A stretch of DNA of 64,000 nucleotides from Chrysomallon squamiferum. Its lineage: Eukaryota; Animalia; Mollusca. The translations under genes and the position numbers were made by a program. The DNA lies in NCBI GenBank assembly GCA_012295275.1, contig CM022665.1, positions 2,232,001 through 2,296,000 on the forward strand. Direction: 5' to 3'. Numbering within the stretch: the first letter of the stretch is position 1; every line of letters starts with the position of its first letter. The notes under the pieces were generated by a model. It worked only from the letters and a program-made list of their open reading frames with translations, was not told the origin of the DNA and did not search any database. Positions 1 to 57,284 of this stretch are shown in pieces.

Positions 1-333
1 CAATGTCCCATTCAGAATTAGATTCATTGTAAAGGGACTGTATCTTGGTGACTACTCCTAGTTATTCGTGTTCAAGCTTCAGATTTTCATCTGTATCTCT
101 CAAAACGTTCCCTGTAACTAATAATATCTGTCTACCCATCTATCCAACCACACACACATACATATAAAACTAACACATAAAATGATGTGGACTTAAAACA
201 CATTAAAATAAAACCAGATCTTGAGTGATCTGTGCATACGCTGCCCCTTCCCCACGGAAAACCTATATCAGCGCACATTGATTAAAAACTTGGTTTCGAT
301 ATCATCCATAGGACAGGAGACAGACTCATTTTA
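1..333 (+). repeat. Segmental duplication block A, copy 1 (partner 6868-7201)
   Basis: Near-identical, read by eye from caatgtcc..ttcag..ttagattcatt to gactcattttaat. Confidence 0.9.
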
Positions 334-354
334 ATTTAAAAAATAATAATAATC

Positions 355-955
355 AATAAATAAATAAATCAAATAATGAATGAATGAATGAATGAATACA
401 AATTAATTCAAAAAAGCAAAATACGAAATCCCCAAATCCCCCCCTTCAAAACTCCCCAAAAGAACGTTGAGGTATTGACATTTTCCAGTTCTGTTTAACA
501 CATAAATTTTCAAATATTATAAATAATATTGGTAGTATTTAAAATAAATAAATTAATAATTAAAAAAAATTAAATTAAATTAAATAACCACCGGAAAACC
601 CGATTTCTATAATTAACTATTTAGTTACGATAACAGTGTTGTTGTTTACGTTAGTGACCTAATCTTACAGCAACGATTATGTTCGATATACGTAACAATT
701 GTGAGTCATCAAGTGGAAAACCCACAATACTCAAAATAAAAACAAGTCATCTGGCCATCTTCCAAGTCATGATCTGTATGATAAAATTAATAAGTTTTAG
801 CTAATTTATCAGACAAGTCAGAGCAAGTTTCTATCTCACTCTCTTTATTTATTTATTTAGTTATTTATTATTTTTAATGGGTTTTTTCTTTCTTTCTTTT
901 CTTGTTTTAGTGTTTTTTTGGTAGGTTTTTTTTTTTAGTTTTTTCCCTCTCATAT
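355..955 (+). repeat. Segmental duplication block B, copy 1 (partner about 7790-8370)
   Basis: Shared run from aaatcaaataatgaatgaatg through gcaagtttctatctcactctctttattt to tttttccctctc; ends approximate. Confidence 0.85.
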
Positions 956-2301
956 TTATTTATTTATTTATTTATTATTTGGTAAAGCAGGCGACACGAA
1001 ATAAATAAATTGGGAGAATGGGGGAACTTTGGTTCATAATAAAATATATGTTATATGTAAAATAAAATTATATTCACAATTAATCAGTCAATGTATAGAT
1101 AGTAACACACGCACACGCACACACGCAAACTTTAAAGCTAAGACATAAAACGACTGTGGATTGAAAATACATTAAAATAAATTTCATGTCTCAGATCTTG
1201 ATGATCCTTGAATACAATGCCCCTTCCCCACGGAAAACCTCTATTCTGAGTGGCTAATTTAACATACGTTGTATATACACACACGCACACACAAACACTA
1301 ATATACATATTCTCTGAAATATACATGTGTAATTATATATAAATACTGTCAACAACTGTCATATACGTGTATAAAAAATATACATCAGGTATGTAGCTAC
1401 ATTAAATACAATAAAACAAAACACTCGTTTCTATTTCGTCGATCAGTAATGGAACTTAATAACGTTAATGTTCCTTAATTGTAGTTTCTAGAAATTTATC
1501 TTCAGTTGTTTAGCCTGATTTTCAGACTCTACGAAACTGTAGACCTACAAAAAGTCGATTTACAATAACAAAAATAATTTAAAAAAAAAGAAAGAAAAAA
1601 GCCTTCTCTGAATATAAATAATTAGCTTTTTTAAGAGCGAAAATGTATATTTATGTTGAAACGTTTCCACTGATTTATTGCCATTTTACATTTATCAATA
1701 TTATATAACGCTAAATAAATTTACCTCACAGGTAATGTTCGTCTAGAATCTAGACTCTAGATGCTTGGATGCATACAGAACACAAAACGTTATTTGAAAC
1801 TAATGAAAAGCAAAAATTCTAATCGTACATTAAGACATGATCACTGATTTATAAAACTGATTCCTTCTTCTTTCACACAATGAAGAAATACAACAACTTT
1901 CAGTCTCACTAAAATATTCAAATACAGATGTGGTAAGACCTTAAGCTAGTTATTTAAATTTATTTATTTATTGCTGTTTATATATTAATAAAATCTGAGA
2001 AACAGAAGTCTAAAGTCTTATGTTGGTCAGTCGACGTTGGTTTTGAAAGTTATCCCCACTGACAAAATGATCTGCTTATGCCTGTTCACTTATATTTGCT
2101 ATGCACACTGAAAATAGTTTCGGATTTAAACACGGTTTTAGTAATTGTGAAATGAACAAGAAAAATGAATACTATAATGAACAGGTTAGAAGTAGATTTA
2201 TGTGGATTTAAAAATGTTAACATTTAAGCTTATTTTTTGAATGATATCGTGTCTCACCTGTGCGTGTCTCACCTGTGCGTATCTCTTGACCAATGTTACA
2301 G

Positions 2302-2582
2302 GTATGTGTGAGGCTGGCACTGTTTGGAGTGACGCAAACAACGTTTGTCAATCTGAAACAACCATTTTCTCGTCCACTCCAGCAAACAGTAATACGTTGG
2401 ATGCTTCAACGACGACAACACCGTTAATACCGGATTGCTCAGAAGACGACGATACATATTACCCGGGAGAGAAATGTGACAGCTTTTACCACTGTGATCA
2501 GGGAAATGCTGTGACATTGTCATGTGGTCCAGGCACTATTTGGAATCAGAGTTCTAAAGTCTGTGTTACGGGAAGCTGCTGA
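2302..2582 (+). CDS. Terminal coding exon of a chitin-binding type-2 (CBM14/peritrophin-A) protein; upstream exons not identified in the window
   Basis: Acceptor ttacag at 2296-2301. Encodes the end of one CBM14 repeat (MCEAGTVWSDANNVC), a Ser/Thr/Pro linker, then a six-Cys repeat CSEDDDTYYPGEKCDSFYHCDQGNAVTLSCGPGTIWNQSSKVCVTGSC. TGA at 2580-2582; AATAAA signals follow near 2658, 2686 and 2723. Confidence 0.8.
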
Positions 2583-4112: not shown

Positions 4113-4178
4113 GAAAGAAAGCGAAAGTGGGGAAGTTTGTCATATCGCAACTGGAAATTCCACGTACAAATGACGTGG
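4113..4178 (+). promoter_or_regulatory. Motif cluster upstream of UBL-RBR paralog 1 (ISRE-like, kB-like, CRE/UPRE-like)
   Basis: GAAAGCGAAAGT 4117-4128, GGGGAAGTTT from 4129, GGAAATTCC 4153-4161 and TGACGTGG 4171-4178, all within about 160 bp of the ATG and just after a poly-T tract. Confidence 0.5.
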
Positions 4179-4273: not shown

Positions 4274-4910
4274 ATGTCTGACGAGTTGTCTAATACATAC
4301 AATGTGTTTGTTAAAGGGATAGAGGGAAAGACGAGAACATTACAAATCCATAAGGTCTGTTTAATTTTTATTTACACCTACTGCAGGATTTTAGAGATGG
4401 GAAGTGCGATGTTTGTTGAAATTTTGTTTTATATTTATTTTATTTACATACATGTATGTGTGTATGTATGAGCGTATATTACGTGGAGAGAACTGGGAGA
4501 GATTGTTGTTTCATTTGGTAATTATTTTTTTGTTTTATCAAATTTCTTTTTTTATTCTTCTACTTTTTTTTTTTTTTTTTTTTTCTCCTTACTGGTGACG
4601 GAAAAGAATTTTGCATAACATAATACTTGATATTATTCTTGAATAACTGAAAGATTTATTTATCAAACATTTTATATTTTATTCATTTGCATTTTCTTTT
4701 ATTTCAATTACAGTAATTTTATAATTTATTTAATAATATTATTATCTATTTATTTATTTATTTACTTTTTTAAATAATAAGGACGCCACGGTTGACGAAC
4801 TTATGCAGAAGATATCAAAAAAAATAAAGATTCCAGTCCATGAGCTGAGAATTCTTTATACAAGTAAGAATATAAACCAAGAGAATATATACAAATATGT
4901 CACAATGCCA

Positions 4911-4965
<55 letters not shown>

Positions 4966-6328
4966 ATAGTTATATTTTATTTCAGAAACCCTTCTTACCT
5001 AAAACATAACTCGCTCCTGTTGTATTACTTTTTTTAATTTTTTATTACTCGTTGTTTGGGATTACAATTATCATTATTTCTCTTCATGCTGTTGTTGTTG
5101 TTGTTTTTGTATTGATGTTGTTGTAGTGATGATGGTTGTGACGTTAGTGACGTTGGTGCTGAATATTTTGAATTTAATTCTTTATTTGGATTCTGAATAA
5201 CCACGTGTTGATTTTCTTGTCTGTTTACTACTAGCGAAACAGCTTGAATACGGAAGTAACAAGTATCTATCAGATTACAAAATGCAGAACAATTCAACGG
5301 TATATTTAGTGTTGAGGCAGCCAGGAGGCTCTGGAGAAGATTACTCGCTTAAACAGCTGGACGAAGACGCACCACGGTCTGATGAGCCAGATATGATTAC
5401 ACTGGACGACGATCCCAATAATGAACGAGCACAGATGCCATGTGGCCATGCCATCGGTAAGAAACGAAAATAACAGATTTGTGGTTTTACACAATGATGA
5501 TGATGATGATGATGATGATTATAAACGATTATGTAAATAATAATATTTATGACGATGATGATACGTCTCTTTATTCTTACCTGTTCATTCAGATTATGAT
5601 ATTTTTCTATTTGTTTGGTTAGAACAGCTAAAACTGTCACTCACACATTATACACTTTTCATTAATATTTGTCATTCGTCTTTATAGGCCCAGAATCCTT
5701 AACAGCATTTTGCCGAAGTCTCCTTGATGCTGGAAAGTTCCAGTTTCTATGTCCTTACAGAAACAACAATGAATACTGCGGCAAAGAATGGCCTTTCTTC
5801 ATTGTTAGGCGCCTGGCAGTTTTGACCGAAGGAGAAATTATCACATTTGAAAGGAAACTCTGTGAAAACTACATTCGCAAAGCAGTGGGGATTCAGGAAT
5901 GTCCACGGTGTCATTGCCTTTGCGAGCGAATCGACAAAACCAACCGCCGAGTCATCTGCACGTTTTGCTCCAGAAAGGGAACTCGTTTTGAATTCTGCTG
6001 GTCATGCCTGCATGAGTGGACCGGGAGTGGAATAGATGCATGTGGCAACGATGAATGCTCTGGAGAAGATCCCCGTCTGAGCATTCTTCGCAAAGCATCG
6101 AAGAAAACTATCGTTGGTGTGGCTAACTGTCCCTCGTGTCGAGCCTGCCCATCCTGCGGAATGATAATAGAGCACACGAAAGCCTGCAAACATATGGTAT
6201 GTCCATGTGGCCAGAAGTTCTGCTTCATCTGTTTGAAAAAGGCTGATGAAGATGGTCGGTATCAGTGTGGATCCTTCAATACGCCTTGTTCTGTTGCTGC
6301 AGTCCAAGAGTCAATACCAGGCTGTTAA
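4274..6328 (+). CDS. Ubiquitin-like domain-RBR (RING1-IBR-RING2) E3 ligase, paralog 1, 341 aa
   Basis: Exons 4274-4354, 4782-4863, 5235-5456, 5688-6328 with GT-AG introns sum to 1026 nt in one open frame. The N-terminus has a ubiquitin-like pattern (VFVKGIEGKTRTLQI..DATVDEL..IPVHELRILYTTKQLE..LSDYKMQNNSTVYLVLRQPGG). IBR-like CPRC..CTFC..FCWSC and RING2 CPSCGMIIEHTKACKHMVCPCGQKFCFIC follow; the predicted catalytic Cys codon is 6185-6187. Confidence 0.9.
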
Positions 6329-6867
6329 CATCGAGTACATAGCTCAACATTTGACTTTCGATCCACGAACTTGTAGAAATTGTTTTTACTAACAAATTAA
6401 ATTCATTTATGACACTTTTATAATAATAATAATAATAATAATTATAATAATTATAATGTTTATTACTATGATGATTTATTAAAAGTAAATAACTTAAGAT
6501 AAAGGTATAGTATGTAGAAATATTGGTGTATAGCAAGTTCACTTACTTATATCGTTGATTCTTTAGTTTTCTGAATGCTTATTTCTTGTTTCAAATAAAA
6601 ATAGATAAATCAATAACATGGACTTTTCGTTTTTAAATTACAAAAAGCAGGATTTATTTTTAATGGAACTGACGTCAGAGGTTCATTGGTTACACTTCTA
6701 GTCAGACGTCGTGTTAGTTTTGTAACCGCAGTAGAAAATAATCGACTCTTTTCCACTAATGGGATACGTGTTTTACTGAAAGAAAAGTACAGCTGAACAG
6801 TGACTTGTTCTAAATGATTCTAACACATGGCTGATTTGACATACGTTGCAGAAAATTAGCTTGTGTA

Positions 6868-7201
6868 CAATGTCCGATTCAGCATTAGATTCATTCTAAA
6901 GGGACTGTATCTTGGTGACTACTCCTAGTTATTCGTGTTCAAGCTTCAGATCTTCATCTGTATCTCTCAAAACGTTCCCTGCAACTAATACTATCTGTCT
7001 ACCCATCTATCCAACCACACACACAACATATAAAACTAACACATAAAATGATGTGGACTTAAAATACATTAAAATAAAACTAGATCTTGGGTGATCTGTA
7101 CATACGCTGCCCCTTCCCCACGGAAAACCTATATCAGTGCACATTGATTAAAGACTTGGTTTCAATGTCATCCATAGGGCAGGAGATAGACTCATTTTAA
7201 T
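6868..7201 (+). repeat. Segmental duplication block A, copy 2
   Basis: Matches 1-333 with scattered substitutions. Confidence 0.9.
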
Positions 7202-9003
7202 AAAAAAAAGTTTTAATTTTGGCGTATGAATACATTGCATAGTCATATTATATTAGTACAGTAATAATTCGATAAAAGTACACTGAACAGAAACACTATC
7301 AAATTAGGAGAAGAAATAAACTATTTTAGAAAATGTTACATTTACATCAAATTATGCTGGAACTTTTGTAAATACATTATTTTTCAAAACAAAAAAAAAG
7401 AAGGAAAAAGCCAATAAGTATCAACTGAACTAATCAATATATGGATGGACACCACAAAATATTTTATAATTAATGCTAGAGTTAAACTAATGTTTGTTGT
7501 TGCTTGTCATGGGGCCCAGCACATAAGAGGTGTTAGTTTCAAGTGCTAACGACTCTATTAAAATATGACTCGTTTCTTGTCTAGGGTTTGCGTCTTTGGT
7601 CGACCCGCTGTCTGTGAAATTAACAAACTGTGACGATTGATTAAAATAGATACACATATTTGCATGTACTACAGATATAAACTATATGTAATATCAAGTA
7701 TTCACTATGAATACCAAAACAAAACACAATATTTATATTACAAAGATAATTATTTATTTTACACATGTATAATAAGTAAATAAATAAATAAAAAATCAAA
7801 TTAAATCAAATAATGAATGAATGAATGAATGAATACAAATTAATTCAAAAATGCAAAATACGAAATCCCCAAATCCCCTCCATCAAAACTCCCCAAAAGA
7901 ATGTTGAGGTTTAACACATAAATTATTAAATATTATAAAAAATATTGGTAGTATTTAAAATAAATAAATTAATAAGAAAAAAGAAAAAAAGAAAAAAGAA
8001 ATTAAAAAAAGAACGGAAAAACCCGATTTCTGTAATTAACTATTTAGTGATGATAACAGTGTTGTTGTTTACGTTAGTGACGTAATCTTACAGCAACGAT
8101 TCTGTTCGATATACGTAACAATTGTGAGTCATCAAGTGGAAAACCCACAATAAACAAAATAAAAACAAGTCATCTGGCCATCTTCCAAGTCATGATCTAT
8201 ATAATAAAATGAATAAGTTTTAGCTTAATTTATCAGACAAGTCAGAGCAAGTTTCTATCTCACTCTCTTTATTTATTTATTTATTTATTTATTATTTTTA
8301 ATGTATTCTTTTCCTCTTTTAGTGGGGTTTTTTTTTGGGGGGGGATTTGGTGTTTTTTCCCTCTCGTATTGATTAAAGACTTGGTTTCAATGTCATCCAT
8401 AGGGCAGGAGATAGACTCATTTTAATAAAAAAAAAGTTTTAATTTTGGCGTATGAATACATTTTATAGTCATATTATATTAGTACAGTAATAATTCGATA
8501 AAAGTACACTGAACAGAAACACTATCAAATTAGGAGAAGAAATAAACTATTTTAGAAAATGTTACATTTACATCAAATTATGCTGGAACTTTTGTAAATA
8601 CATTATTTTTCCAAAAAAAAAAAAAAAAAAAAAGAAGGAAAAAGCCAATAAGTATCAATTGAACTAATCAATATATGGATGGACACCACAAAATATTTTA
8701 TAATTAATGCTAGAGTTAAACTAATGTTTGTTGTTGCTTGTCATGGGGCCCAGCACATAAGAGGTGTTAGTTTAAAGTGCTAACGACTCTATTATAATAT
8801 GACTCGTTTCTTGTCTAGGGTTTGCGTCTTTGGTCGACCCGCTGTCTGTGAAATTAACAAACTGTGACGATTGATTATAATAGATACACATATTTGCACA
8901 TACTACAGATATAAACTATATGTAATATCAAGTATCCACTATGAACACCAAAACAAAACACAATATTTATATTACAAAGATAATCATTTATTTTACACAT
9001 GTA
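7143..9003 (+). repeat. Direct duplication block C (about 7143-7770 and 8368-9003) enclosing block B copy 2
   Basis: Two almost identical copies of about 630 bp, from attgattaaagacttggtttcaatgtc to tttacacatgtat. Confidence 0.9.
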
Positions 9004-10853
9004 TACTTATTATTTAGTGCTTGAGGACGTGGGAGTTGGCGTTAAATGAAATACTACAATTCTTAATTCTTTTAATTTTCCCTACAAGGTTTTGTTAGAA
9101 ATAAATATATAATTCAAACTCTCTGTGGAGCATATACAGGTTACATAAAATTGATCAACAAATCAAACAGAGCCTACAGAAACAGGATAACCATTTGTCC
9201 CTGCTTCAAACAAAGACAACCCAAAATACAATTACCGACATAGTTGTCTAATAATGGACGCCAACTCCTCGTCCCACCCGTGTTTTCTCTTTGTTCTCTG
9301 TGGTATGGTATGGTAACTCTTTTTACGTGCTCACGTCCAGTTCAAGGTTCAGGCACGCCTATCACGGATCCGATCTCTGGGATCGCCAGGGATGGGTTCC
9401 GTGACAGGAGAGGGGAAGGGGAAGGGGAAGGGGAAGGGGGTGGTGCATTTGAAGTGGGCAATTTGGATTAAACCTTACGTGGTTTTTAGTTCTTTGTTCT
9501 CTGTGGTCTCTCTGTGACTGTGGGTCTTTTACTTAAATAAACACGTCGCGGACTTCCATGAAGTCAGCAGAGCGGAGCTGACAAAAATTCCTTTTGTCTC
9601 TCGCTAATGACTGTTAATTTTTAGGTGATTTCAGTAATTGGGTTACTGTTAACTAACAGTAGATATTTAATTAATACATATTGTTAGGAATATTTGTAGA
9701 AATGAATGGTTAACATATTTACTTACTTTAAGGTTAATTACGAGATGTTAAACTATATTAAAGTAAGTCATTTAGGTAAATATTAAATATGTTACCGACA
9801 TTTTCAAAAACTGTACCTTAAAAGTACAACAACATAAAATATTATAATAAGTAACAAAAAAAAAAAAAAATATAGCTACCAGCGAATTCTACAAGTAGGT
9901 ACAAACTAAACTGCAATTCGTGGCTTAGTAAATAAGTTAGGACCAATTTGCTACGTTAAAGAAACACAGAAAACAGTACATCTAAATATCACTGAGAAAA
10001 CTTTCCCAGCTTGAACAAGGCCCCACTAGGGTATGGCTAAGAGCCCCATTACGTAAGATAAAAACCATGGTTTGACGTCATATTGCTGTTGTTTGTTAGT
10101 GTTATTTAGACAGTAACAGATGGCCATACCAGAGCCTTCGATTTTAAATTTATATATATATATGTATATATATATAAGAAAAATATTAAAAATGAACTAT
10201 GTTGAGTATTATTAAATATATTTGCAGTGCTTATTAGTTTATAACCCAGTTATACTGAAATTAAATTGATTGCGTAACTGAAGAGTGAGAGACAAGTGAT
10301 AAGTGAAAAGAAAGTTATAAATTCTGTTAGTTACATCCAGTCACCTGATACTTCGGTTGTTTATACACTAGAAAATCAGTTTTGTATTTAATATTCTTAA
10401 TCCAAAGTGATGAAGATAACTGTTCAGAGGAATATGACGAGATAGCCTTCAACTTATTAAATTTTTAGATTTTAATTTTATTTATTCTATGTATGTGTGT
10501 GTGTGTGTGTTTTAAAATGTGGAGAAACTAAATCTGAATTTCAGCATTTATGTTTTCCCTTTTTTTTATATAAACAAATAATAAAAATATTTTAAATTGA
10601 ATGTTTTTATTACAGCTGATAAATTGCTTAGCAGTATAATTTAGTAGCTGTCCTTACTTTTCAAAATAAATAGTCACGAAAAGGTCAGTTCCAGAACAGG
10701 CAGAAATATGCACAGGTAAATTATTTGTCTGTGTGTGTGTGTGTGTGTGAGTGACAGAGAGAGAGTACGTTTCACCTGATTTACATAGACAGACAGACAA
10801 AAGTCATATAAATAGATATTGTTTCTTGTTTTTGTGGCAATTGTTACTTTCAC

Positions 10854-11447
10854 TCATCCTTTTATTGATGACAGAGCACTTTGTTCAGCTTTTGAAATGT
10901 AAATTGAATTGAAATGTGTGTACTCATTCAGCAGATCATGGTCGAACGAGTTTTCCACTTCTGGTTTTATCAGAAGTGAAAACAGAGCACGAAGAATTTG
11001 TTCCACATTGTTGGTGGCTTGCCAATTATCCGTGGACAAAAATCCCAAACAGACTTGACCACAGCTCTGGCTGACATTCAGGTGATAGATGGACGTAATA
11101 AAATGTATCTGAAATTGTGATTGGTCAAAATTTTAAATACGAACAATGAAAAATTGTGTGTGTGTGTGTGTGTAAGGTTGTAAACACAAAGGTTTTTCGG
11201 GGTTATTATTTCTTTATATGACTTTTGTTTCCTTTTACCTGATAATCACATCATGATTATTAAAATATTATTATTTCAAAAGAAAGGTGATATTACAGTT
11301 TTCATTGAAATCCTAACTATTCTAAATTATATGCGGTCAAACTTACCAGTGGTGGCTCCATAGGATATCCATCACTGAAACAAACAGCTCAGGAAACTTC
11401 TAAATCATAAAATATGTTGTACATTTTACACGTTGTATTTAATTTTA

Positions 11448-11502
<55 letters not shown>

Positions 11503-11676
11503 GTAATGACAGTTCTAATTTTATTTAACAATGCAGTTTGGAAGAAATTATTAATTGTAAACGTATCATCCTTTACAAGAAACGTTGAACTGTTAAGGAT
11601 ACGGAATGGTGATTCGTACTTTGAATCTTCCTCCTGGCGAAAACAAAAACAAATGTACATCTAAATAAAAACGTCT

Positions 11677-11716
<40 letters not shown>

Positions 11717-12252
11717 ACAAACACACACATAAATACAGTTATTAATCTGATTTCAATTTTCCCTTAAAGCATTCATTTTTCGACTGTTTATTTGTTTTTC
11801 GAGATTGTTTATACAGAGTCAACTGATAATTTTAAACAGACAGTAGCGGAGACGAAGACACAATCATTAACAACAACAATATAATAATAATAAGAAGAAG
11901 AAAGAAGAAGAATTTAAATATATTTATATATCTAATTATTATTCATGACGTTGTTGGATAAAATGTGTTCGTAAGTTTGGGTGTATGCGTGCATGCTCAT
12001 GCAAGTGTTTGCCTGTGTGTACCCTTATATGGTGATTCTGGTGGTCCTTCTAAGACTGCTTCCCACACATGTAGATTGTCTGACTCCAGAGACACAGATA
12101 TTCCTGGTGGGGGAGATTTCTGGAGCGCCGCGAACTCCTTTTTCAGTCTGGAAACAAAAAAAAAGTCTTACAGACAGACAGATGGACAAAGAGCGAGTCA
12201 GATAGACAGGCAGACTGATATATAGATAGACTAACAGACAGAGATACAGACG

Positions 12253-12302
<50 letters not shown>

Positions 12303-12378
12303 CAGGTACGTATATAGGCAGTTAGGTACGTAGTTAGATATGGACGGATGGACACAGAGGCATACAGCCATATACAGA

Positions 12379-12415
<37 letters not shown>

Positions 12416-12515
12416 AGATACAGAGACAATTAGATGAAAACGTAACAAATAATTTATTTTCCGTATTGACTAATTACGTCACGACTAAATACTACTTTCT
12501 CAGCACACACACAAA

Positions 12516-12586
<71 letters not shown>

Positions 12587-13230
12587 GTCTCCTATTCTGT
12601 TACACGAATAGAGGTAATGATAGGTATGCGTGAACCCCAAAAAAAGTTTACTTTCATAATAAACTGACACTAGAATTCTCCCTACTCAGTTCTTAGAATC
12701 GTATCCGAATACATTTCTTTGAAAAACATATTTTATTTGTAATAGCGTAACTGTGCAATGCTGTGTCATGTTTATTTCAATCATTACAAATATTATATAT
12801 TAGAAAATAAATATCATTGCTTAAAAGAATATCAGTTTAATAAGTATCAGCTGAATAATAAATCTGTAAAGGAAGTCTTACGTGTAAATATTATTTCCGG
12901 GGAAAACCCAGGAGTTTAACCTTTGACATTAATTTTATAATTTATGTTGGCTAATAAGAATAAAAAAAATACACATTTATATCTACATTGTATATAAACA
13001 AAGAACGCTGAACAGAATACGTTATTTACGATTTATTTGTTTATTTGTTTATTTATTTATTTATTTTAATAACAGAAAAGGAATTTTTGCACTTTATATT
13101 CGCTGTTTCAGAGTGCGGTGAAAATCCAGTACTGTACGTATGGAACAAATATTTAAACATTAAAATATTTAAACAATAATTTGTAACATACTTACCTGTT
13201 AGCGTATTGCCGTTCTAGCAGGGTGCTCAT
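10854..13230 (-). CDS. Divergent ubiquitin-conjugating enzyme (E2/UBC fold), 157 aa
   Basis: Exons 13230-13196, 12147-12023, 11633-11603, 11374-11347, 11108-10854 sum to 474 nt: MSTLLERQYANRLKKEFAALQKSPPPGISVSLESDNLHVWEAVLEGPPESPYKGGRFKVRITIPDGYPMEPPLIHFITSIYHLNVSQSCGQVCLGFLSTDNWQATNNVEQILRALFSLLIKPEVENSF...SSIKG*. UBC motifs RLxKE, W..GP..SPY.GG.F, YPxxPP, HxN and the catalytic Cys (11049-11051) are all present. Confidence 0.9.
11375..11602 (-). other. U12-type (minor spliceosome) GT-AG intron in the E2 gene
   Basis: 5' end GTATCCTT matches the U12 donor consensus. A branch-like TTTCCTGAG (11396-11388) lies about 14 nt before the AG. Splicing joins ITIP to DGYPMEPP and removes in-frame stops on both sides. 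Confidence 0.8.
12165..12583. repeat. Microsatellite cluster (GACA/GATA, GT, GA) in E2 intron 1
   Basis: (GATA)n about 12253-12302, (GT)n about 12382-12412, (GA)n about 12519-12583. Confidence 0.9.
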
Positions 13231-13679
13231 TGTTACTTATTTCACTTTAATCGACCGTTCCTTGGAAAATGAATCATAGGTTTTCCCTCACTGATCTAGT
13301 GGATTTTTCCTCGAAAAACAGTATGGTAATGAATATTTAAAGGTCTTACCTTATTTGTGTTGTAGGGGAGGCGACCTCTAGTTAAATCTTTCTATGTTTA
13401 ATGAAATCTGAATACTGAGGATGATGACGATGATGTTAAATCAAGAGAATATATACAAATATGCCACAGTTCCATAAATCTCTATCTCTCAGCTTTTCAT
13501 ACTTGAATATGAAATCAAGATTTTGAAACTCTTACACACATATAGATTTATTAGACTCGACATATCACCCGTCCCCGCCCACACCTAATTAACATAATAA
13601 TCACGTAAGAGGTTTGTTTTTCCGAGAATCGGAGATTACCAAGAAGTGTCAGTCTGGAAGTGAACACTGAGGTGGCGCG
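13231..13679. promoter_or_regulatory. Putative bidirectional promoter shared by the E2 gene and UBL-RBR paralog 2
   Basis: 449 bp between divergent ATGs. kB-like GGTTTTCCC (13279-13287) and GGATTTTTCC (13301-13310); GAS-like TTCCTCGAA (13307-13315) and TTCCGAGAA (13620-13628); GC box CCCCGCCC near 13573. A further GGGGAAAACCC lies at 12899-12909 in E2 intron 1. Confidence 0.6.
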
Positions 13680-15512
13680 ATGTCTGATCAGAATACCTGG
13701 CAGCTGTTTCTGAAAGGTTTGCAAGGAAAAACAACACTGATCGAAATTCATAAGGTAATACAGAGATAATATTTTTTAAATTATTATTTTCTTTGCCTAA
13801 TTTCTTTCTGTATGGATTTTTTTTACTATTATTATTATTATTATTATTATTATATGATCATTTATTTGTAGGATGCTTCGGTGGATGAACTGCTTAGGAA
13901 GATATCAAAAATGAATGGAATCCCTGTTGAAACTCAAAGAGTTCTGTACACATGTAAGATAAAAATGTGTTAAACCCACAACTTTTTATAAGAAAAAAAA
14001 GAAAAAAAAAAAGATTGTATTTATTATTATTTTGTTGTTGTTACTGTATGAGGAGGGTGGGAGAAAGAGGAGATGTAATACAGTGTTTGTAATAAATGCA
14101 CTTTACATTCTTTTTATATTTCTTGACTAGTTACTAGTTTGTTGTTATTATTGTGAACATTTCACTTTGATCACAAAGGTGTAAAGTTTTCAAATAAATT
14201 TTAAACTGAGTAAATTATGCAGTGGACAAAATTCTTCTTTCTTAAGTAAAATGAAACAAAAGCAATGAATCTATCTGCTTGGAAGCTTTGTTTGCATTTA
14301 GTTAATTCATTAGATCTTGATGTCAATAATGAGAAACCATTTGTTAAATTTTGTTGATTCTTTGATGCAGCTAGACAACTGGAATATGGAAAAAACAAAT
14401 TTATGACAGATTATAAGATACAGAATGAGTCGAATTTGTTTGTGGTTCTGCGACTGAAAGGTGGTTCTAATGTTCCACCAAAGGAGTTGGATGAAGATGT
14501 GGAACTTACTGACCTGCCTGACATGATCTCCTGGGATGATGACCCAGAAAACAAACGAGCAAAAATGCCTTGTGGACATGCCATAGGTCTAAATTTCATT
14601 TTTGTTTTTAACTTCATCTTTTTTCTTCTCGTCTATTAAAAATATTGGATATACTTAATTTGAAAAAAAACCCATCTCTGTTTTAAAATGTCTTAATTCA
14701 GTATTTTTCTTTTATTCAGCAGCTTAATCTTGTAAAACAACATATATTTTACCATTGTCATTTTAATTGGGTGTTCAGTTAATTCTGCAAAATTACAGGT
14801 TCAGACATGGTAAATCTTATTTTTTCTGCCCATTTTCTTACAGTATTTATGTGTTTGTTTTATAATATGTTGTAGGTCCAGAATCACTCACAGCTTATTG
14901 TCGCAGTTTGCTGGATGCTGGAAAGTATCGTTTTCTTTGTCCATACATGGATGACAACAGCTACTGTGGTAAGGAATGGGCATACTTCACTGTTCGTCGC
15001 TTGGCCGTATTAACAAAAGATGAGAAAAAAATCTTTGAAAACAAGATCACTGAAAACTACCTGCGTAAAGCATGTGGAATACAAGAATGTCCAAAATGCC
15101 ACTGCTTTTGTGAAAGAATAGACAAAAAAGATCGAAGAGTTATCTGCCCATTTTGCTCTAAAGATGGAGAGCTGTATGAATTCTGCTGGTATTGTCTCCA
15201 TCAGTGGAGAAGCAGTGAAACGCAAGAATGTGGAAACAAAGAGTGTTCAAAGGAAGACCCACGACTGAAGATTCTTCATAATGCTCCAAAAAAACCATTG
15301 TTGGAGTTAGCAACTGTCCTTCAAGAAGATCCTGTCCTTCCTGTGGAATGATACTTGAGCATGAGAAAGCCTGCAAACACATGATCTGTCCTTGTGGCCA
15401 GAATTTCTGTTTCATCTGTCTGAAGAAAGCAGTCAATGGTAATTACCAGTGTGGATCCTACAACAGTCCCTGCACAATAGCTGAAATTCAGAAAACCATT
15501 CCTGGGTGTTAA
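13680..15512 (+). CDS. Ubiquitin-like domain-RBR E3 ligase, paralog 2 (about 336 aa once a 1-nt frameshift in the A7 run at 15288-15294 is corrected)
   Basis: Exons 13680-13754, 13872-13953, 14371-14586, 14876-15512 have the same intron positions and phases as paralog 1. The UBL ends VVLRLKGG. The exon sum is 1010 nt, one short of a codon multiple; adding one A restores KKTIVGVSNCPSRRSCPSCGMILEHEKACKHMICPCGQNFCFICL..IPGC*, collinear with paralog 1. Confidence 0.85.
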
Positions 15513-22100: not shown

Positions 22101-25100
22101 TTTTTCATTGTTTGCTTTTTTGTTGTTTTTTTCAGACATATTTTCAAAAACTAGTTGTTTTTACCAAAGTCATAAGACGTATTGTTATCAGAAAGCCAGA
22201 TGGCTGAAAAACGAGCTATACAATTTTTTTTTTTTTTTTCATTCTAACATTGTTCTGCCTTGATTGCATTATCTCTATGAGTTTCTATGGGTAACATATT
22301 AAGAAAAACATTTTTTATTTCTTTACCTCATCTTTTTAAAAATGTTTGCATTTGTTGTTTAAGTTTTAATGCAGTTATCTGCATCTGATTTTCATGCCAA
22401 AAAATGTGCATTAACATAATTTTTTAAAAGATTTACCTATTTATGTAACTTATCTTGCATATATAACACAAATTTCAAAATATATTTCATCAATTCGGAA
22501 AAAAAAGTATTTTAAAATTTAAAAACCATAAAAATAAAAATAAACAACCTGAGATTTTTCTGCAGAGTTTGTCCTCTCTGATCTTTGTGCTAGAAGATAC
22601 AAATGTACAGGCTCTTTCAATCCTATATTTTAGTTTGATGTCATAATGTGAGACAATTTCATATTTATTCCTGGAATCTGTTGCTATTTTTGGACAAAAT
22701 AGTTTACACAAATAGGAAATATAAAGAAAAATAAGACAGTTAAAATATGAAAAACATTTTATAAATAATAAATTTGTGAAATTAATAAAATTTTTTTTTT
22801 ACAAAAACCTCAGTTAACATTCAAAACATTTTGAATGCAGTAAACACAAAAAAACTGAATAAATTTCAAATATGAAAATAGCATAAAGATCAGATGCATG
22901 AATAAAAAAGAAAATTTATTTCAAAAATGATAACAGAATAAATATTTAATGTTTATCATTAAACATAACTGGATACAAAATCACAATTCATCAGTTTGTA
23001 AAATTATTTAATCTTTAAATATAAATCAGTTATATTTTAAATGCAACATATAACATCAGGATATATAATATTTGTATTAATTCATACATTTTTAAAATAT
23101 AATAATAACAAGAGAAATAGTAGTAGTGGCAATAGTAGCACTAGTAGTAATTAACTGTAATAATAATAATAATAATAGTAATAACAATATTAATAATAAT
23201 AATAGATATTGTAAGTATAAGTAATTATAATAATAATGATAATAATATTAGTAACATTAATAATAATAGATATTGTAAGTATAACAGTAATTATAATAAT
23301 AATGATAATAATATTAGTAACATTAATAATAATAGATATTGTAAGTATAACAGTAAATATAATAATAGATATTGTAAGTATAACAGTAATTATAATAATA
23401 ATGATAATAATATTAGTAACATTAATAATAATAGATATTGTAAGTATAACAGTAAATATAATAATAATAATAATGTTTAACACACCAATTGAAAAGTTCC
23501 GTACTCTTCTCGGAGTAGATGGGTGAGAAAACCATGCAAACTTCGCTGATCCCCCAGGTCCATCGTCCAGTGTTGATGTGAGCAGAAAGAGGTAAATATA
23601 TGTATGGTGAGAGACCAGCCACAAAACACAGAGACAGCTTAATAAATAAAGTCCATGTCAACACCTGAAACAATACAACATGAACATACAAGTTTATCTA
23701 CTGATGTAAGAAATGTCAGTTTTATAAAAGAGGTTGAAATATATAACTAAAACTTGGCAGGAAACAAAATTAAAATTAAAAAGGTTAATTTATAAATAAA
23801 AGAAATAATTTAGTTTTGTTTTTCCAGTACACCATCTTGCTTACCTACAAGGTTAAAGACAAGCACAAACGTGTTAGAGAGAATATTACAGTTTTGTTTC
23901 CAACTGCAGACACTGTTTATTATATACATAGCTTTATGAACTGGCTTGTGTGATAAATATTAAATATATATATGTGTCTGAAAAAACATTTCACAACTTG
24001 GAATATTCATCTACTGGTTGAACAAAAACAATTTTTTAAGTGAAATTCAAAGACAGTATTTAGATAGTTTTAACTAGGTTTATTCTACCATACATGTGCC
24101 ATTTTTTTCACCTTTCAGAATATGCATATGTGTCATATATTTAAATCATGTGTGGAATGAAATGACCTGTTGAGATGCCTGCCACCTACTGAAAAACACA
24201 CAAACGTTTGATCCAAGCCAATACATTATTTACTGTGTTAACTCTGAGGATAGCTCTCACACTTTGATGTTAGTGAAATAATGAAGGACAAACCTGTGAC
24301 TTGTAAAGAACAGTGAAAACCCATGGTACAAGACAAGTGACATAAATAACAGATGTATGCTGGTTACACAGGGATAATCCACAAGTAAAGGCACCAAGCA
24401 TTGCAATCTGAAAATACATTTTAGAAAATTCATTTTGATTAATGCACTTTCAAATGTCCCACATTAAAGCAAACGCCAGCAAGTGTCATTGGGAATGAGC
24501 ATTCAGACTTAGCCACTAATGAGACTGTGTTACATGCACACAAAAATTATTTCATAATTCTAACATCATTATAATGTGTACTCACTTAGAAATGAGTAAC
24601 ATACAGAGCCACATTAGAGATAAAACTAACAAGAGGTCATGTTTTTCTCAAGATTTGATTTTACAAAAAAAAATTAATTAGAAGATGAACATCTGAAATC
24701 TATTTGGAGGAAGCTTTTCATGGATTTATCACAACTGTATGGCATTTAAAACCTTAAGCAATAGCATAAAGTTTTAATGTTAAAATGACATCTAATTTCC
24801 ATAGGCAGACCATAAAAATCTAGTATTTTCAAATTTATATTGAATTAGCAAAAGTTAGAATCATAAAATGTTGTTCTTAGTATTATTATTTAAGAAATTA
24901 TGCTAGTGAAAGAAAGTATTTATAACTAAAATGTTACTGAAGTGACAGTCACCATGTTTAAATGTCTGACAGATTTTGCCTGGTCCAGACACACAGCAAG
25001 AAACATGAGCAGAGACAGAAACAGACTGTTGAGACTGAACACTTCTGCTGTCACTGACCACACCCAGGTTAAACGACTAAAAGAAAAAAGTCCTGATGCT

Positions 25101-28100
25101 AGTATTCCTGCAGCTATTGAACCAGTCAGTCTGCAATGAATGAAGGAAAAAAAGAAGTTTAATATCACATTAACATGTTTTGTTACAAGTAATATATATT
25201 TTTTTACAATGGTAAAGTCTTAGAAACTAATTATACCACTCCATTAGAAAATGTTATTTATTATCAGCAGGGAACTTTATAGTCATTTTGCCATGATTGC
25301 CAATGTACAGGACTGGCAAGAATTGGAAACTGCACCAAATTGCAATCTAAAAGGTTAAACCTGTAACCTTAGACCACTGAACTGCAGTTATAATCAGAAA
25401 ATAAATAAATTTTAAAATATCAGCATTTTCTGTTAACTATAAAATTTATTAGTTTATAATTAGTTTAAACTAAAAATGAGAGAAATGAAGTAAGTCAAAA
25501 GTGAAGTAAGTTTAACTGTCAGTTCTGGGTGGTATATAGTTTAACACAAACCTTGCTGATATTTCATAAACAAGAACTGAACACAGTGAACCAAAAATGG
25601 AAGAAAGAAGATTCACTCTCCATGCAACTGTACCAAATGGCACAATCACCATGGCAACATGGGCCAACAAAGTAAAAACAGGATAGCCTGGAGGATGAGC
25701 AACCTGTAAAATAAACAATATATAACTACACAACAACAACAGTAATAGAATAACAATAATAAATTATAAAGTAATAATAATAATAACAACACCAAGAATA
25801 TTAGATAAATAATAATGACATTTAAATGACAGTATTAATATCAATAGGTACTATTTAACCTAAAAGGTGATCTGAATCTGAAACAGATCTATCAAATAAA
25901 TATTATTTTAAAATAATTATTATAATGATAGAATTTTTTTATTAATATAAATTATTCAAATTAAAACAAAAACAACAACAGGTAAGTGAACCTGAATTTT
26001 AACATGATAATAATAAGTATTATATTCCATGGCTGTAACTAAACTCTTTTTGAAATGAGGCAAAAACACTTAATCGCTAAGACAGTTATGTCTTTCATCA
26101 CAACAATGTCAGTAGACTCCAAACAGTAACTGTAGATATAAACAATTCATTCAGTGGATATCATTTCTGTTGGAATAAAGATTTGTATTTTATATTTTTT
26201 AAACAAAATCTTTGTATAAAAAAACATCATCTATTTCTGTATCAGGTATTTGTCTCATTTGCCTCAGTGTAGTTATGGCCATGTATTCTAAGTACTTACA
26301 CCTAACTCATGTGCTGCAAGAATGAGCTCCCCTAAAAGTTTAATTTAAAACAAAAATAATAATCAAAATAATAAAATAACAATAACAACAAAATGAAAAA
26401 TAAGAAAAGATTTAATTTAAATAATTTTGATTTATACAGACAGAAAGAGAAATTCATCATATTTAAATTGAAAATTCAGTAAAAGAATATATTTTACAGA
26501 TTCAAACTATTTCAAACTGACAAATCATATCTCATAATAAAAATGAAGAAAAACAATACTAAAGAAAGAAACACGAAGAAAGGGAAATATGTTCAAAAGA
26601 AAACATCTCAAAATCAAAATGACAACCATATGTGTCAAATTAGTGGTATTTGTAATATAATGTCAAAACAAATTATTTCTTTAAATACAGACTTGACTTA
26701 AAAAAAATAAAATTTTAAAAAAGATTTTCACTGAACTTTTATTTTTTTTCACTAAAATGTTTTTCTAATTAATTAATTAATTTGTTTGTATTTTGTGGGT
26801 TCTTTTTAAATTTTATTTATTTTATTTATTATAACATATATTTTAAAGACTGGATATTTATATTTAAAAAAAAGATGTAGTAAAATATTCAATAAGTACC
26901 TGAATCTCCTCCTGGTAATGATGGATACAATGTATTTGCATAAATTGCCATGGTAATGAAGCCAATGCATGAAGAAATGGCATACTCTTTTTTAATACTG
27001 AAATTACACAAATTCATTTATAATAATAACAAAAAAATATATTGTTTCGTATGAACCAAATTAATTGATCCTATACAAAATCTTTATATATTATTTCATA
27101 CTTATTAATAAGAGGAATCAGCTGTGTAAATGTTTGTAATAAGAAATAAATAAATAAAAAAGTCTTTCTTTTCTAAAATAAAATAAAAACCCCAGTAACT
27201 ATAAATGAATAAAACAAACATCTTAAAATTATAAAGGAAACTATTGATAACAATATATTTATAAAATGAATGTATTTTAAAGTAATATCTTACTTCCTAG
27301 TACTTATATATACATATATATATCACAGAGAAAAATGACAGTGAGTACATTTAACAGACATTTGGTTTTAAGTGCATTTTGACATACCTCATAATGATTA
27401 AGGCAAGGCACAAGGCACAAAGTTTAAATTTAATTGTTAAAGCTGTATTTATTGTACTTCATGGGGTGAGGTAAATCTAAAAGAGAAAATAAAGGATTAA
27501 GCTATCTGATAAAGTTATTACAGATAATCCATCATCAAAAAGCTTTACATATTTTTCTCTGCTTGATAATGTATAATAATATTCTAATATTAATATTTGT
27601 AACACGTATCACTGGCATAGATTTATGAAATTTAACTTTTGCAGAATGCATACGTCATTAATTCTAATCTAAATATATTTATTATTATTATTATTATTTT
27701 ATTTTAATTTATTTTATTTTATTTATTATTCTTATATACATTTAAATGCATTTGGGAACTTTGGGCAGGATGTGAAACAGTCAAATCATAAATGCAATAA
27801 AAAAAACAACAACTGCAGGTACGTTTGATATACAAGGGAAATAACTATAACCACACTTTTGTAACATCCTTGACATACGACGTGAAGCGTTCTGAACTAT
27901 GCTGTTAAACATGCTTGTGACTTATGGGAAGTGCATGTGTTAAAATTGAGTCTACTATGGTAAGTTTGATTTTGACTCCTGTATTGATAATAATAATTAT
28001 TATTATTTTTATTTATTTGATTTATAGATATATGAAATAAACACGAATGCCGTAATATCATATAGCATTGCTAAGGTTTCCGGTTTTGTATTTAATAAAT

Positions 28101-29695: not shown

Positions 29696-57284
<27,589 letters not shown>

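What the first reader, a model, noticed from the sequence alone, without database searches (positions are those of the whole stretch)
4274..15512. Self-contained conjugation cassette: UBL-RBR ligase, divergent E2, UBL-RBR ligase
Seen: within 11 kb, two paralogous genes each fuse a di-glycine-ending ubiquitin-like domain to an RBR E3 with an intact RING2 catalytic motif (ACKHM), and they flank a non-canonical E2 that is head-to-head with one of them. Established: RBR ligases accept ubiquitin from an E2 onto a RING2 cysteine, and vertebrates have an inducible modifier pathway with its own enzymes (ISG15, UBE2L6, HERC5); E2 and cognate E3 genes are not usually adjacent in animals. Inference: modifier, E2 and E3 are encoded together as a co-regulated, operon-like module, possibly an invertebrate immune or stress conjugation system that needs only an E1 and a protease in trans. 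No E1 is present in this window.
Basis: partly seen in the sequence, partly recalled or inferred. Interest (0 to 1): 0.88.

Follow-up and report, generated by a model that had tools for sequence, protein, structure and literature searches.

The report
Ancient linked E2–RBR immune tagging module
In this likely snail genome an unnamed ubiquitin-carrier enzyme (E2) sits head-to-head with a ubiquitin ligase fused to a ubiquitin-like tag, the two genes are also neighbours in corals, a bristle worm, an acorn worm and amphioxus, and they likely form a dedicated, probably infection-induced protein-tagging pair whose ligase half is the fish interferon-induced gene ARIT.

Summary
Observation confirmed. 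Two spliced UBL(GG)-RBR genes flank a five-exon E2 lying head-to-head with gene B (449 bp between ATGs); B's apparent frameshift is corrected by reads. The pairing is ancient: 18 of 54 E2-clade records share a contig with this RBR family, accessions are consecutive in Owenia, amphioxus and Ptychodera, and 5 coral loci are head-to-head with conserved kB/GAS-like sites. The ligases are invertebrate, UBL-bearing members of ARIT, an RBR clade named in salmon in 2025 and strongly induced by IFN-gamma and virus (PMC12234341). RING1 lacks its first zinc site. The E2 forms its own clade, tentatively next to UBE2L3, and lacks both lysine-activating aspartates, so it is predicted to hand over only to a cysteine. 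'Self-contained' and 'operon' overstate: no E1 or protease, divergent transcription, and the conserved unit is the E2-RBR pair. Best reading: a dedicated E2-E3 pair using ordinary ubiquitin, with the UBL as regulator (0.5); the UBL as an ISG15-like tag is open (0.3). Activity, cleavage and co-induction are untested.

The parts
4117..4161 (+). Gene A proximal promoter: ISRE/IRF-like site (4117) and kB-like site (4153)
   Evidence: motif consensus recalled, picked after seeing the sequence; 0 of 159 control tiles hold both
4274..6328 (+). Gene A: UBL-RBR (ARIT family), 4 exons, 341 aa; GG 5324-5329, one-zinc RING1 from 5387, RING2 ACKHM 6182-6196
   Evidence: 251/340 identical to Gigantopelta XP_041354389
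5427..6062 (+). 636-bp segment missing in an allele or near-identical copy of A (non-GT-AG joint); in-frame, leaves UBL + RING2 (206 aa)
   Evidence: joint 5426>6063 in RNA X8, X9 and DNA X1; frame check
10854..13230 (-). E2 gene, 5 exons (two micro-exons of 31 and 28 nt), 157 aa; HLN 11084-11076, catalytic Cys in VCL 11054-11046
   Evidence: spliced RNA contig
13231..13679 (.). Shared divergent promoter and 5' UTRs of E2 and gene B; GAS-like sites at 13307 and 13620; E2 transcript reaches at least 13380
   Evidence: 2 of 106 control tiles hold 2 or more GAS-like sites
13680..15512 (+). Gene B: UBL-RBR (ARIT family), 4 exons, 336 aa; GG 14460-14465; ACKHM 15369-15383; 1-nt assembly error in the A-run at 15288

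Best explanation
The E2 and the UBL-RBR genes are an ancient linked pair that likely works as a dedicated, probably immune-induced ubiquitin relay: a general E1 would load ubiquitin on this E2, which is predicted to pass it only to a cysteine, the RING2 cysteine of its partner ligase, and the fused GG-ending UBL likely acts as a built-in ubiquitin mimic that regulates the ligase and may be clipped off. Shown: gene structures, transcription of E2 and B, conserved neighbourhood, conserved catalytic residues, loss of RING1 zinc site 1, loss of the D87 and D117 equivalents. Inferred: co-induction through the shared kB/GAS-type promoter; E2 docking on the altered RING1; transthiolation; ubiquitin rather than the UBL as main cargo; cleavage after GG, which would leave a product shaped like vertebrate ARIT (RBR only).
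For: Linkage: 18 of 54 E2 rows on contigs of 5 kb or more share an exact contig length with an RBR-family row, including contigs of 5.9, 25.6, 148 and 198 kb; consecutive accessions in Owenia (CAH1781574 / 575-576), B. lanceolatum (CAH1244598 / 597) and Ptychodera (XP_070557712 / 710-711); head-to-head in 5 of 13 coral E2 loci, 745-911 bp apart, all 5 with the same kB-like and GAS-like words. E2: His, Asn and Cys in 44 of 44 rows; Asp at the D87 and D117 positions in 0 of 44, like UBE2L3, which is cysteine-only and serves HECT/RBR ligases (PMC5095918 passage; PMC4822130 passage); clade SH-aLRT 99, sister to UBE2L3-like rows at 91 (P0195 is UBE2L3). Ligase: RING2 Cys in 70 of 70; predicted fold matches RBRs, RING1 to RNF144A RING1 Z 8.0, rmsd 3.4, 88 aligned. 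Immune link: ARIT log2FC above 11 with IFN-gamma and above 4 with ISAV (PMC12234341). Complex model: weak support, 0.56 against best control 0.00, runs agree in at least 55% of contacts, partner pLDDT at least 84; at 0.60 or under the mark was reached by 5 of 78 solved complexes and all 4 passing mismatches, and E2-RING1 is a textbook pair, so it may pass from memory (P0002 with P0108, not a cognate pair). For ubiquitin as cargo: a ligase-fused tag gives only one tag per enzyme (inference); no E1 in the window; the UBL tail position 74 is free (Leu 19, His 14, Pro 10, Arg 9, Lys 9 of 69); one RNA contig of B reads Ser for the first Gly.
Against: No biochemistry and no induction data for any invertebrate member. 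36 of 54 E2 rows had no contig match (both lists are incomplete samples of cluster representatives); coral locus L017 shows no RBR in 3.6 kb upstream of E2 exon 2; Argopecten E2 and RBR rows are on different contigs; no E2 row came up for Gigantopelta, Mytilus, Mya, Dreissena, Macrostomum, Actinia or Dendronephthya, which have the ligase. The coral loci are one lineage (L006 and L011 are 99.9% identical). The tree is the quick one, with outgroups drawn from the profile's own top hits, and the UBE2L3 sister branch is below the 95 mark. The GG is the most conserved part of the UBL (69 of 69 and 67 of 69), which fits the rival as well or better. Promoter motifs were chosen after seeing the sequence and single motifs are only modestly above shuffles.
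Confidence: 0.5

Rival explanations
1. The UBL is a real modifier: a protease cuts after GG, UBA1 or UBA6 (or an unlinked E1) activates it, and this E2 and the freed RBR attach it to targets, as an invertebrate counterpart of ISG15.
For: G75 69 of 69, G76 67 of 69, R72 64 of 69, R42 64 of 68, no Pro after GG in 69 rows, although the UBL overall is the fastest-changing domain (42% mean identity against 57-67%). That R42/R72/GG are E1 determinants is recalled. Vertebrate ARIT keeps the odd RING1 but has no UBL, and no vertebrate-named row is among the 84 E2 hits: the E2 tracks the UBL rather than the RING1.
Against: One tag per ligase is a poor supply; no linked E1 or protease seen; Pro at position 74 in 10 of 69; a G75S read in gene B. 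The co-loss is only a hint: the word-index search also missed vertebrate ARIT, and one Atlas cluster, mostly chordate, has a ubiquitin domain in 24% of members.
Confidence: 0.3
2. The genes stay together only because they share an immune-responsive bidirectional promoter; the E2 and the ligase work mainly with other partners.
For: Vertebrate ARIT apparently works without this E2; the complex prediction is weak and may come from memory; several ligase-bearing genera gave no E2 row.
Against: Both partners have altered the usual E2-E3 surfaces: RING1 zinc site 1 is replaced by an invariant D-M-x-T motif, and the E2 has Leu/Tyr/Met in most rows at the F62 position (Phe in 2 of 34) and a variable SPA loop; a cysteine-only E2 needs a cysteine E3.
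Confidence: 0.13
3. Chance neighbourhood or a decaying local duplication with a catalytically weak E2.
For: Gene A shows broken alleles or copies (in-frame deletion; 1-nt loss at 5916 in X1); HPN is HLN.
Against: Neighbourhood kept in Cnidaria, Annelida, Hemichordata, Cephalochordata and here; catalytic His, Asn, Cys in 44 of 44; E2 and B are spliced in RNA runs.
Confidence: 0.04

Closest known systems
ARIT RBR ligases of teleosts, reptiles and some mammals (PMC12234341; zebrafish si:ch211-212k18.15-type clusters)
   Same: Same motifs along the whole RBR in the paper's alignment SF1.12 (D-IT-D, R-x-MSCGHAV-P-SLT-CRSLL-G, F-CP, VRRLA-LT, EFCW-CL-W, CPS-RACP-CG, FCF-CL, RQT-IP), compared by eye; small RBR without transmembrane part.
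   Different: Vertebrate ARIT has no flanking domain and reads CKN/CKY in RING2; the invertebrate members have an N-terminal GG-ending UBL, CKH (54 of 70) or CKQ (16 of 70), and a linked E2. In the sections I read the paper calls the RBR typical and does not mention invertebrates, a UBL, a linked E2 or the lost zinc site.
UBE2L3 (UbcH7) with RBR ligases (parkin, ARIH1, HOIP)
   Same: E2 without the D117 acid, GQVCL and xNW motifs, 36% identity over 127 aa; tentative sister group.
   Different: Separate clade; HLN; altered F63 and loop-7 surfaces; physically linked to one ligase family, whereas UBE2L3 serves many.
Vertebrate ISG15 pathway (UBA7, UBE2L6, HERC5/ARIH1, USP18)
   Same: GG-ending UBL precursor, UBE2L-related E2, immune-induced ligase family.
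   Different: Single UBL fused to the E3, not a free tandem UBL; no dedicated E1 or protease found; conjugation unproven; ISG15 genes are unlinked (recalled).
Parkin (UBL-RING0-RBR)
   Same: N-terminal UBL on an RBR; top Foldseek hits for the full model; UBL regulates in cis (PMC3940038 passages).
   Different: No RING0; the UBL keeps an LRLxGG tail (parkin's lacks it, recalled); one-zinc RING1.
Ubiquitin/FUBI-ribosomal protein precursors; prokaryotic Bil and archaeal ubiquitin operons
   Same: GG-ending UBL made as an N-terminal fusion; conjugation genes clustered (PMC11354881 passages).
   Different: The fusion partner is the E3 itself; divergent spliced genes, no operon; family not found in viral or prokaryote collections.

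Membership tests
RBR E3 ligases | RING1-IBR-RING2 order and fold | tested here: met
   Pfam IBR above cut-off; models pLDDT 88 and 87 match ARIH2, parkin, HOIL-1, RNF144A RING1
RBR E3 ligases | Catalytic Cys in RING2 | tested here: met
   Cys in 70 of 70 rows; His two residues on in 54, Gln in 16
RBR E3 ligases | RING1 with two zinc sites (8 ligands; pattern recalled) | tested here: not met
   Only C126, H128, C152, C161 (site 2) are kept; site 1 positions read D-M-I-T and G/T/S-P-E-S. An atypical RBR, as is ARIT
RBR E3 ligases | E3~ubiquitin thioester activity | not testable with these tools
   needs an in vitro assay
ARIT clade | Shared ARIT sequence motifs over the RBR | tested here: met
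   by-eye comparison of SF1.12 with column counts; Atlas first hits are si:ch211-212k18.15 clusters, 0.94
ARIT clade | Clusters with ARIT in an RBR phylogeny | not tested
ARIT clade | RBR only, no flanking domain | tested here: not met
   N-terminal UBL in A, B and the full-length invertebrate rows
ARIT clade | Induced by interferon or virus | not testable with these tools
   only promoter motifs; contigs give no expression level
UBE2L3/UBE2L6-type E2 | UBC fold with catalytic Cys and Asn | tested here: met
   (44 of 44)
UBE2L3/UBE2L6-type E2 | No acid at the D117 (and D87) position | tested here: met
   0 of 44 Asp at either; Asn125 aligns to UBE2L3 His119
UBE2L3/UBE2L6-type E2 | Nests within UBE2L3/L6 | tested here: not met
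   own clade (99), only sister to UBE2L3-like rows (91) in a quick tree
ISG15-type modifier pathway | UBL with di-glycine end | tested here: met
ISG15-type modifier pathway | Free tandem two-UBL protein from its own gene | tested here: not met
   single UBL fused to the ligase
ISG15-type modifier pathway | Dedicated E1 and protease | tested here: inconclusive
   none in the window ORFs screened; no whole genome held
ISG15-type modifier pathway | UBL is cleaved and conjugated to proteins | not testable with these tools
   needs biochemistry or proteomics
Operon (polycistronic cassette) | Co-directional genes on one transcript | tested here: not met
   E2 is on the opposite strand to A and B; separate spliced contigs

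The most novel reading that the evidence does not exclude
An ancient, inducible ubiquitin-like conjugation pathway of invertebrates, older than ISG15: the tag and its E3 are made as one precursor, cut at GG, and the tag is attached by a private cysteine-only E2 transcribed from the same kB/STAT-responsive bidirectional promoter; vertebrates dropped both tag and E2 and kept only the ligase (ARIT), which hominoids then lost.
Probability: 0.3. Interest if true: 0.92.

Novelty: new variant of a known kind. Interest (0 to 1): 0.78.

Why it matters
Cognate E2-E3 pairs are hard to assign, and in animals their genes are rarely neighbours (recalled). Here gene order kept from corals to amphioxus names a candidate partner E2 for an uncharacterised, interferon-induced ligase family, and adds a one-zinc RING1 and an unnamed E2 clade predicted to be cysteine-only. 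Three small soluble proteins make directly testable whether invertebrates have an ISG15-like inducible tag, and what ARIT's ancestral antiviral or antibacterial role was in corals, molluscs and amphioxus.

Tried and rejected
No whole genome is held, so paralogues, an unlinked E1 and the DNA upstream of the window could not be searched. Gene B as a pseudogene: rejected, reads add the missing base. Viral or prokaryote origin: RBR alignment found no relative in viral contigs (0 of 79 pattern matches) or GTDB genomes (0 of 146); P0108 none in viral contigs (0 of 7); the E2 motif pattern gave 3 GTDB loci, none an E2; 6 of 19 metagenome loci were chance matches and 7 of the 13 true ones end too early to test linkage. 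An E2-RBR fusion protein: none among the 2 hits of 131-2000 aa or visible in the 24 top rows printed, a weak test; longer RBR forms (above 371 aa) were not searched. RNA contigs of gene A show only the internally deleted form; the lack of cover over 5604-6004 is no evidence that intact A is silent. Induction data for invertebrate members: the 4 readable supplements of a Nematostella immune-cell paper (PMC13319465) held none of 5 terms; its two large files could not be read and may bear on this. Literature searches that found no description of the invertebrate family, the E2 or the linkage: (only PMC12234341 for ARIT); the library lacks most subscription papers. The careful E2 tree did not finish. 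The copy structure upstream of gene A was not checked with further runs. The wide VIA-align search was not run; RING1 likeness to U-box or SP-RING is therefore untested. The Atlas look-up of the E2 gave only generic UQ_con clusters.
Full report
Observation. The three genes are real. Joining exons at GT-AG sites gives gene A (+, 4274-6328, 341 aa), an E2 (-, 13230-10854, five exons, 157 aa) and gene B (+, 13680-15512). Pfam finds ubiquitin, IBR and UQ_con above curated cut-offs. As assembled, B has a 1-nt frameshift in an A-run at 15288, upstream of RING2; all three runs that cover the site (RNA X8, X9; DNA X1) add one base, so this is an assembly error and B is 336 aa. Both RNA runs join two introns of B, and one contig carries E2 exons 1, 2 and 5 with exactly the 59 letters of the two micro-exons between them; its 5' end reaches 13380. 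E2 and B start 449 bp apart, head-to-head; A ends 4525 bp from the E2 stop. A and B are 224/336 identical. The best named relative is from the gastropod Gigantopelta aegis (74%), so the source is likely a gastropod. No E1 or DUB family appeared among the ORFs screened (65 outside the cluster, 10); other genes seen are TMEM260-like, UDP-glucose pyrophosphorylase and a chitin-binding ORF.

The ligase family. One search returned 107 relatives among 242 candidates, from corals, an anemone, a flatworm, an annelid, bivalves, gastropods, hemichordates and amphioxus. I aligned 63 of them, chosen as long enough to reach the UBL, with 6 cluster members and the window exon. RING2 keeps its Cys in 70 of 70. 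The UBL is the least conserved domain (42% mean identity against 57-67%), yet its two glycines are nearly fixed (69 of 69, 67 of 69), with R72 in 64 of 69, R42 in 64 of 68, K48 in 62 of 69 and no Pro after GG; position 74 is free. RING1 keeps only the second zinc site (C126, H128, C152, C161); where the first site's cysteines belong there is an invariant D-M-x-T motif and G/T/S-P-E-S (canonical pattern recalled). AlphaFold models are confident (pLDDT 88.0 and 86.8) and match RBRs; the RING1 part aligns to RNF144A RING1 (Z 8.0, rmsd 3.4, 88 residues) and ARIH2 (Z 8.3, rmsd 3.9, 91). The Atlas points to fish si:ch211-212k18.15 clusters (0.94). A 2025 salmon paper (PMC12234341; I read passages, section 3.6 in full, and parts 3-4 of its supplement) names an undescribed RBR clade, ARIT, in teleosts, reptiles, echidna, elephant and monkeys, absent from humans, RBR-only, with log2FC above 11 after IFN-gamma and above 4 after ISAV. 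Its printed alignment shares this family's motifs from the D-IT start of RING1 to the C-terminal RQT-IP (by eye; no joint tree). The window's ligases are therefore most likely invertebrate ARITs that still carry a UBL.

The E2. A profile search over 1.84 billion representatives and a follow-up (84 hits among 1424 candidates, at least 2 of them ordinary E2s) define a clade with the YH[LV]N-x-G[QHN]VCL[GR] motif in corals, scallops, a nemertean, Owenia, hemichordates and amphioxus; no named row is vertebrate. In a quick IQ-TREE run of 167 rows (the careful search did not finish; outgroups were the profile's own top hits) the window E2 and 24 full-length members form one branch (SH-aLRT 99), sister to UBE2L3-like rows at 91, below the 95 mark. 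His, Asn and Cys are present in 44 of 44 aligned rows, but neither D87 nor D117 has an Asp in any; Asn125 aligns with UBE2L3 His119. UBE2L3 has His at the D117 position and reacts only with cysteine, serving HECT and RBR ligases (PMC5095918, one passage; PMC4822130 and PMC5758712, passages). The E3-binding F62 position and SPA loop are also changed. Cysteine-only reactivity is a prediction.

Linkage. Eukaryote genomes cannot be browsed here, so I used three proxies. (ii) Accessions: of 6 named pairs with both numbers, 3 are consecutive (Owenia, B. lanceolatum, Ptychodera), 1 is 16 apart, 2 are uninformative (Montipora, Saccoglossus); these give no orientation. (iii) DNA: a motif scan of metagenomes gave 19 loci, 13 with the E2; 5 reach an RBR and all 5 are head-to-head, 745-911 bp ATG to ATG; 7 end too early; L017 has 3.6 kb without an RBR match. 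These loci are stony corals by similarity and count as one lineage; L006 and L011 are near-identical and have a second RBR downstream in tandem. So the conserved unit is E2 head-to-head with one UBL-RBR, and further ligase copies vary (Gigantopelta has three consecutive ones). Against: 36 of 54 rows unmatched, Argopecten on different contigs, and several ligase-bearing genera without an E2 row; the lists are incomplete samples, so these are not proven exceptions.

Regulation. The E2/B interval holds two GAS-like sites (14 of 500 shuffles reach 2; 2 of 106 control tiles), and gene A's 300-bp upstream holds an ISRE-like and a kB-like site (72 and 13 of 500 shuffles; 0 of 159 tiles hold both). 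All 5 coral intervals keep a GGGAAATTCCC, a TTCTGAGAA and a second kB-like word. The consensus motifs are recalled and were chosen after seeing the sequence, so this is a lead that agrees with ARIT's induction, not proof of co-regulation.

Binding. A complex prediction of the Gigantopelta RBR (95-342) with the unnamed E2 P0108, folded without alignments, gave weak support: 0.56 against best control 0.00, at least 55% shared contacts, partner pLDDT at least 84; at 0.60 or under the mark was reached by 5 of 78 solved complexes and by all 4 passing mismatches, and E2-RING1 complexes are well represented among solved structures, so it adds little.

Mechanism. Most likely (0.5) a dedicated, inducible E2-E3 pair relaying ordinary ubiquitin from a general E1 through E2 Cys to RING2 Cys, with the UBL as an in-cis ubiquitin mimic or removable pro-piece; parkin's UBL regulates in cis (PMC3940038, passages), and cleavage would yield an ARIT-like product. 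The rival (0.3) is that the UBL is the tag. For it: the near-fixed GG, R42 and R72, and the apparent joint absence of UBL and E2 in vertebrates while the odd RING1 persists. Against it: one tag per enzyme, no linked E1 or protease, Pro74 in 10 of 69, and a single RNA contig (X8, depth 11) reading Ser for B's first Gly. Mere co-regulation without partnership gets 0.13, chance 0.04.

Gene A is unstable. Window 1-960 repeats 6868-8374, depth over A is about 1.5-2 times that over B in X1, and a 636-bp non-GT-AG deletion that removes RING1-IBR in frame stands in two RNA runs and one DNA run from two studies; X1 also has a 1-nt loss at 5916 in about half its depth. A further A-like copy just upstream of the window is likely but unchecked. 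The window's Gln at UBL position 73 reads Leu in X8, X2 and most of X1.

Novelty. The ligase clade was named in vertebrates in 2025; ten searches of the open library found no account of the invertebrate UBL fusion, the E2 clade, the linkage or the one-zinc RING1. For hits other than the seven papers opened I saw listings and abstract starts only; PMC11354881 was read as passages; for PMC13319465 only four supplements were searched and two could not be read. The scan's own notes held nothing by sequence or place and two loosely similar, unchecked arrangements in other eukaryotes by words. Verdict: new variant of a known kind, interest 0.78; 0.92 if the UBL proves to be a conjugated tag.

Noticed in passing
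window 1-960 vs 6868-8374; 7143-7771 vs 8368-9005: Segmental duplications (85-97% identity); the first repeats the DNA downstream of gene A and suggests another A-like copy just before the window.
   Followed up: partly
window 5427-6062: In-frame deletion form of gene A (UBL + RING2 only, 206 aa) in RNA and DNA runs of two studies.
   Followed up: partly
window 14460: One RNA contig reads G>A, turning the first glycine of gene B's di-glycine to Ser; not seen in X9 or X1.
   Followed up: partly
window 2241-2582 (+): ORF with a chitin-binding peritrophin-A domain (CBM_14, E 4e-11) just upstream of gene A.
   Followed up: no
window 8812-10014: High-copy repeat between A and the E2 (depth tens of times the flanks in DNA runs); not classified.
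   Followed up: no
window about 24900-25800 (-) and 49200-56230 (+): Exons of a TMEM260-like gene and of UDP-glucose pyrophosphorylase: ordinary neighbours.
   Followed up: no
L003:263-2332: A contig with both E2 and RBR already spliced and joined through the promoter, as if the two divergent transcripts overlap or an unstranded assembly bridged them.
   Followed up: partly
L017:1999-7347: A more divergent coral-type E2 with no RBR match in 3.6 kb upstream of exon 2: possible exception to the linkage.
   Followed up: partly
P0035 (Gigantopelta XP_041354388): A tandem paralogue with a degenerate tail (EG for GG) and CRQ in RING2, next to two intact copies.
   Followed up: no
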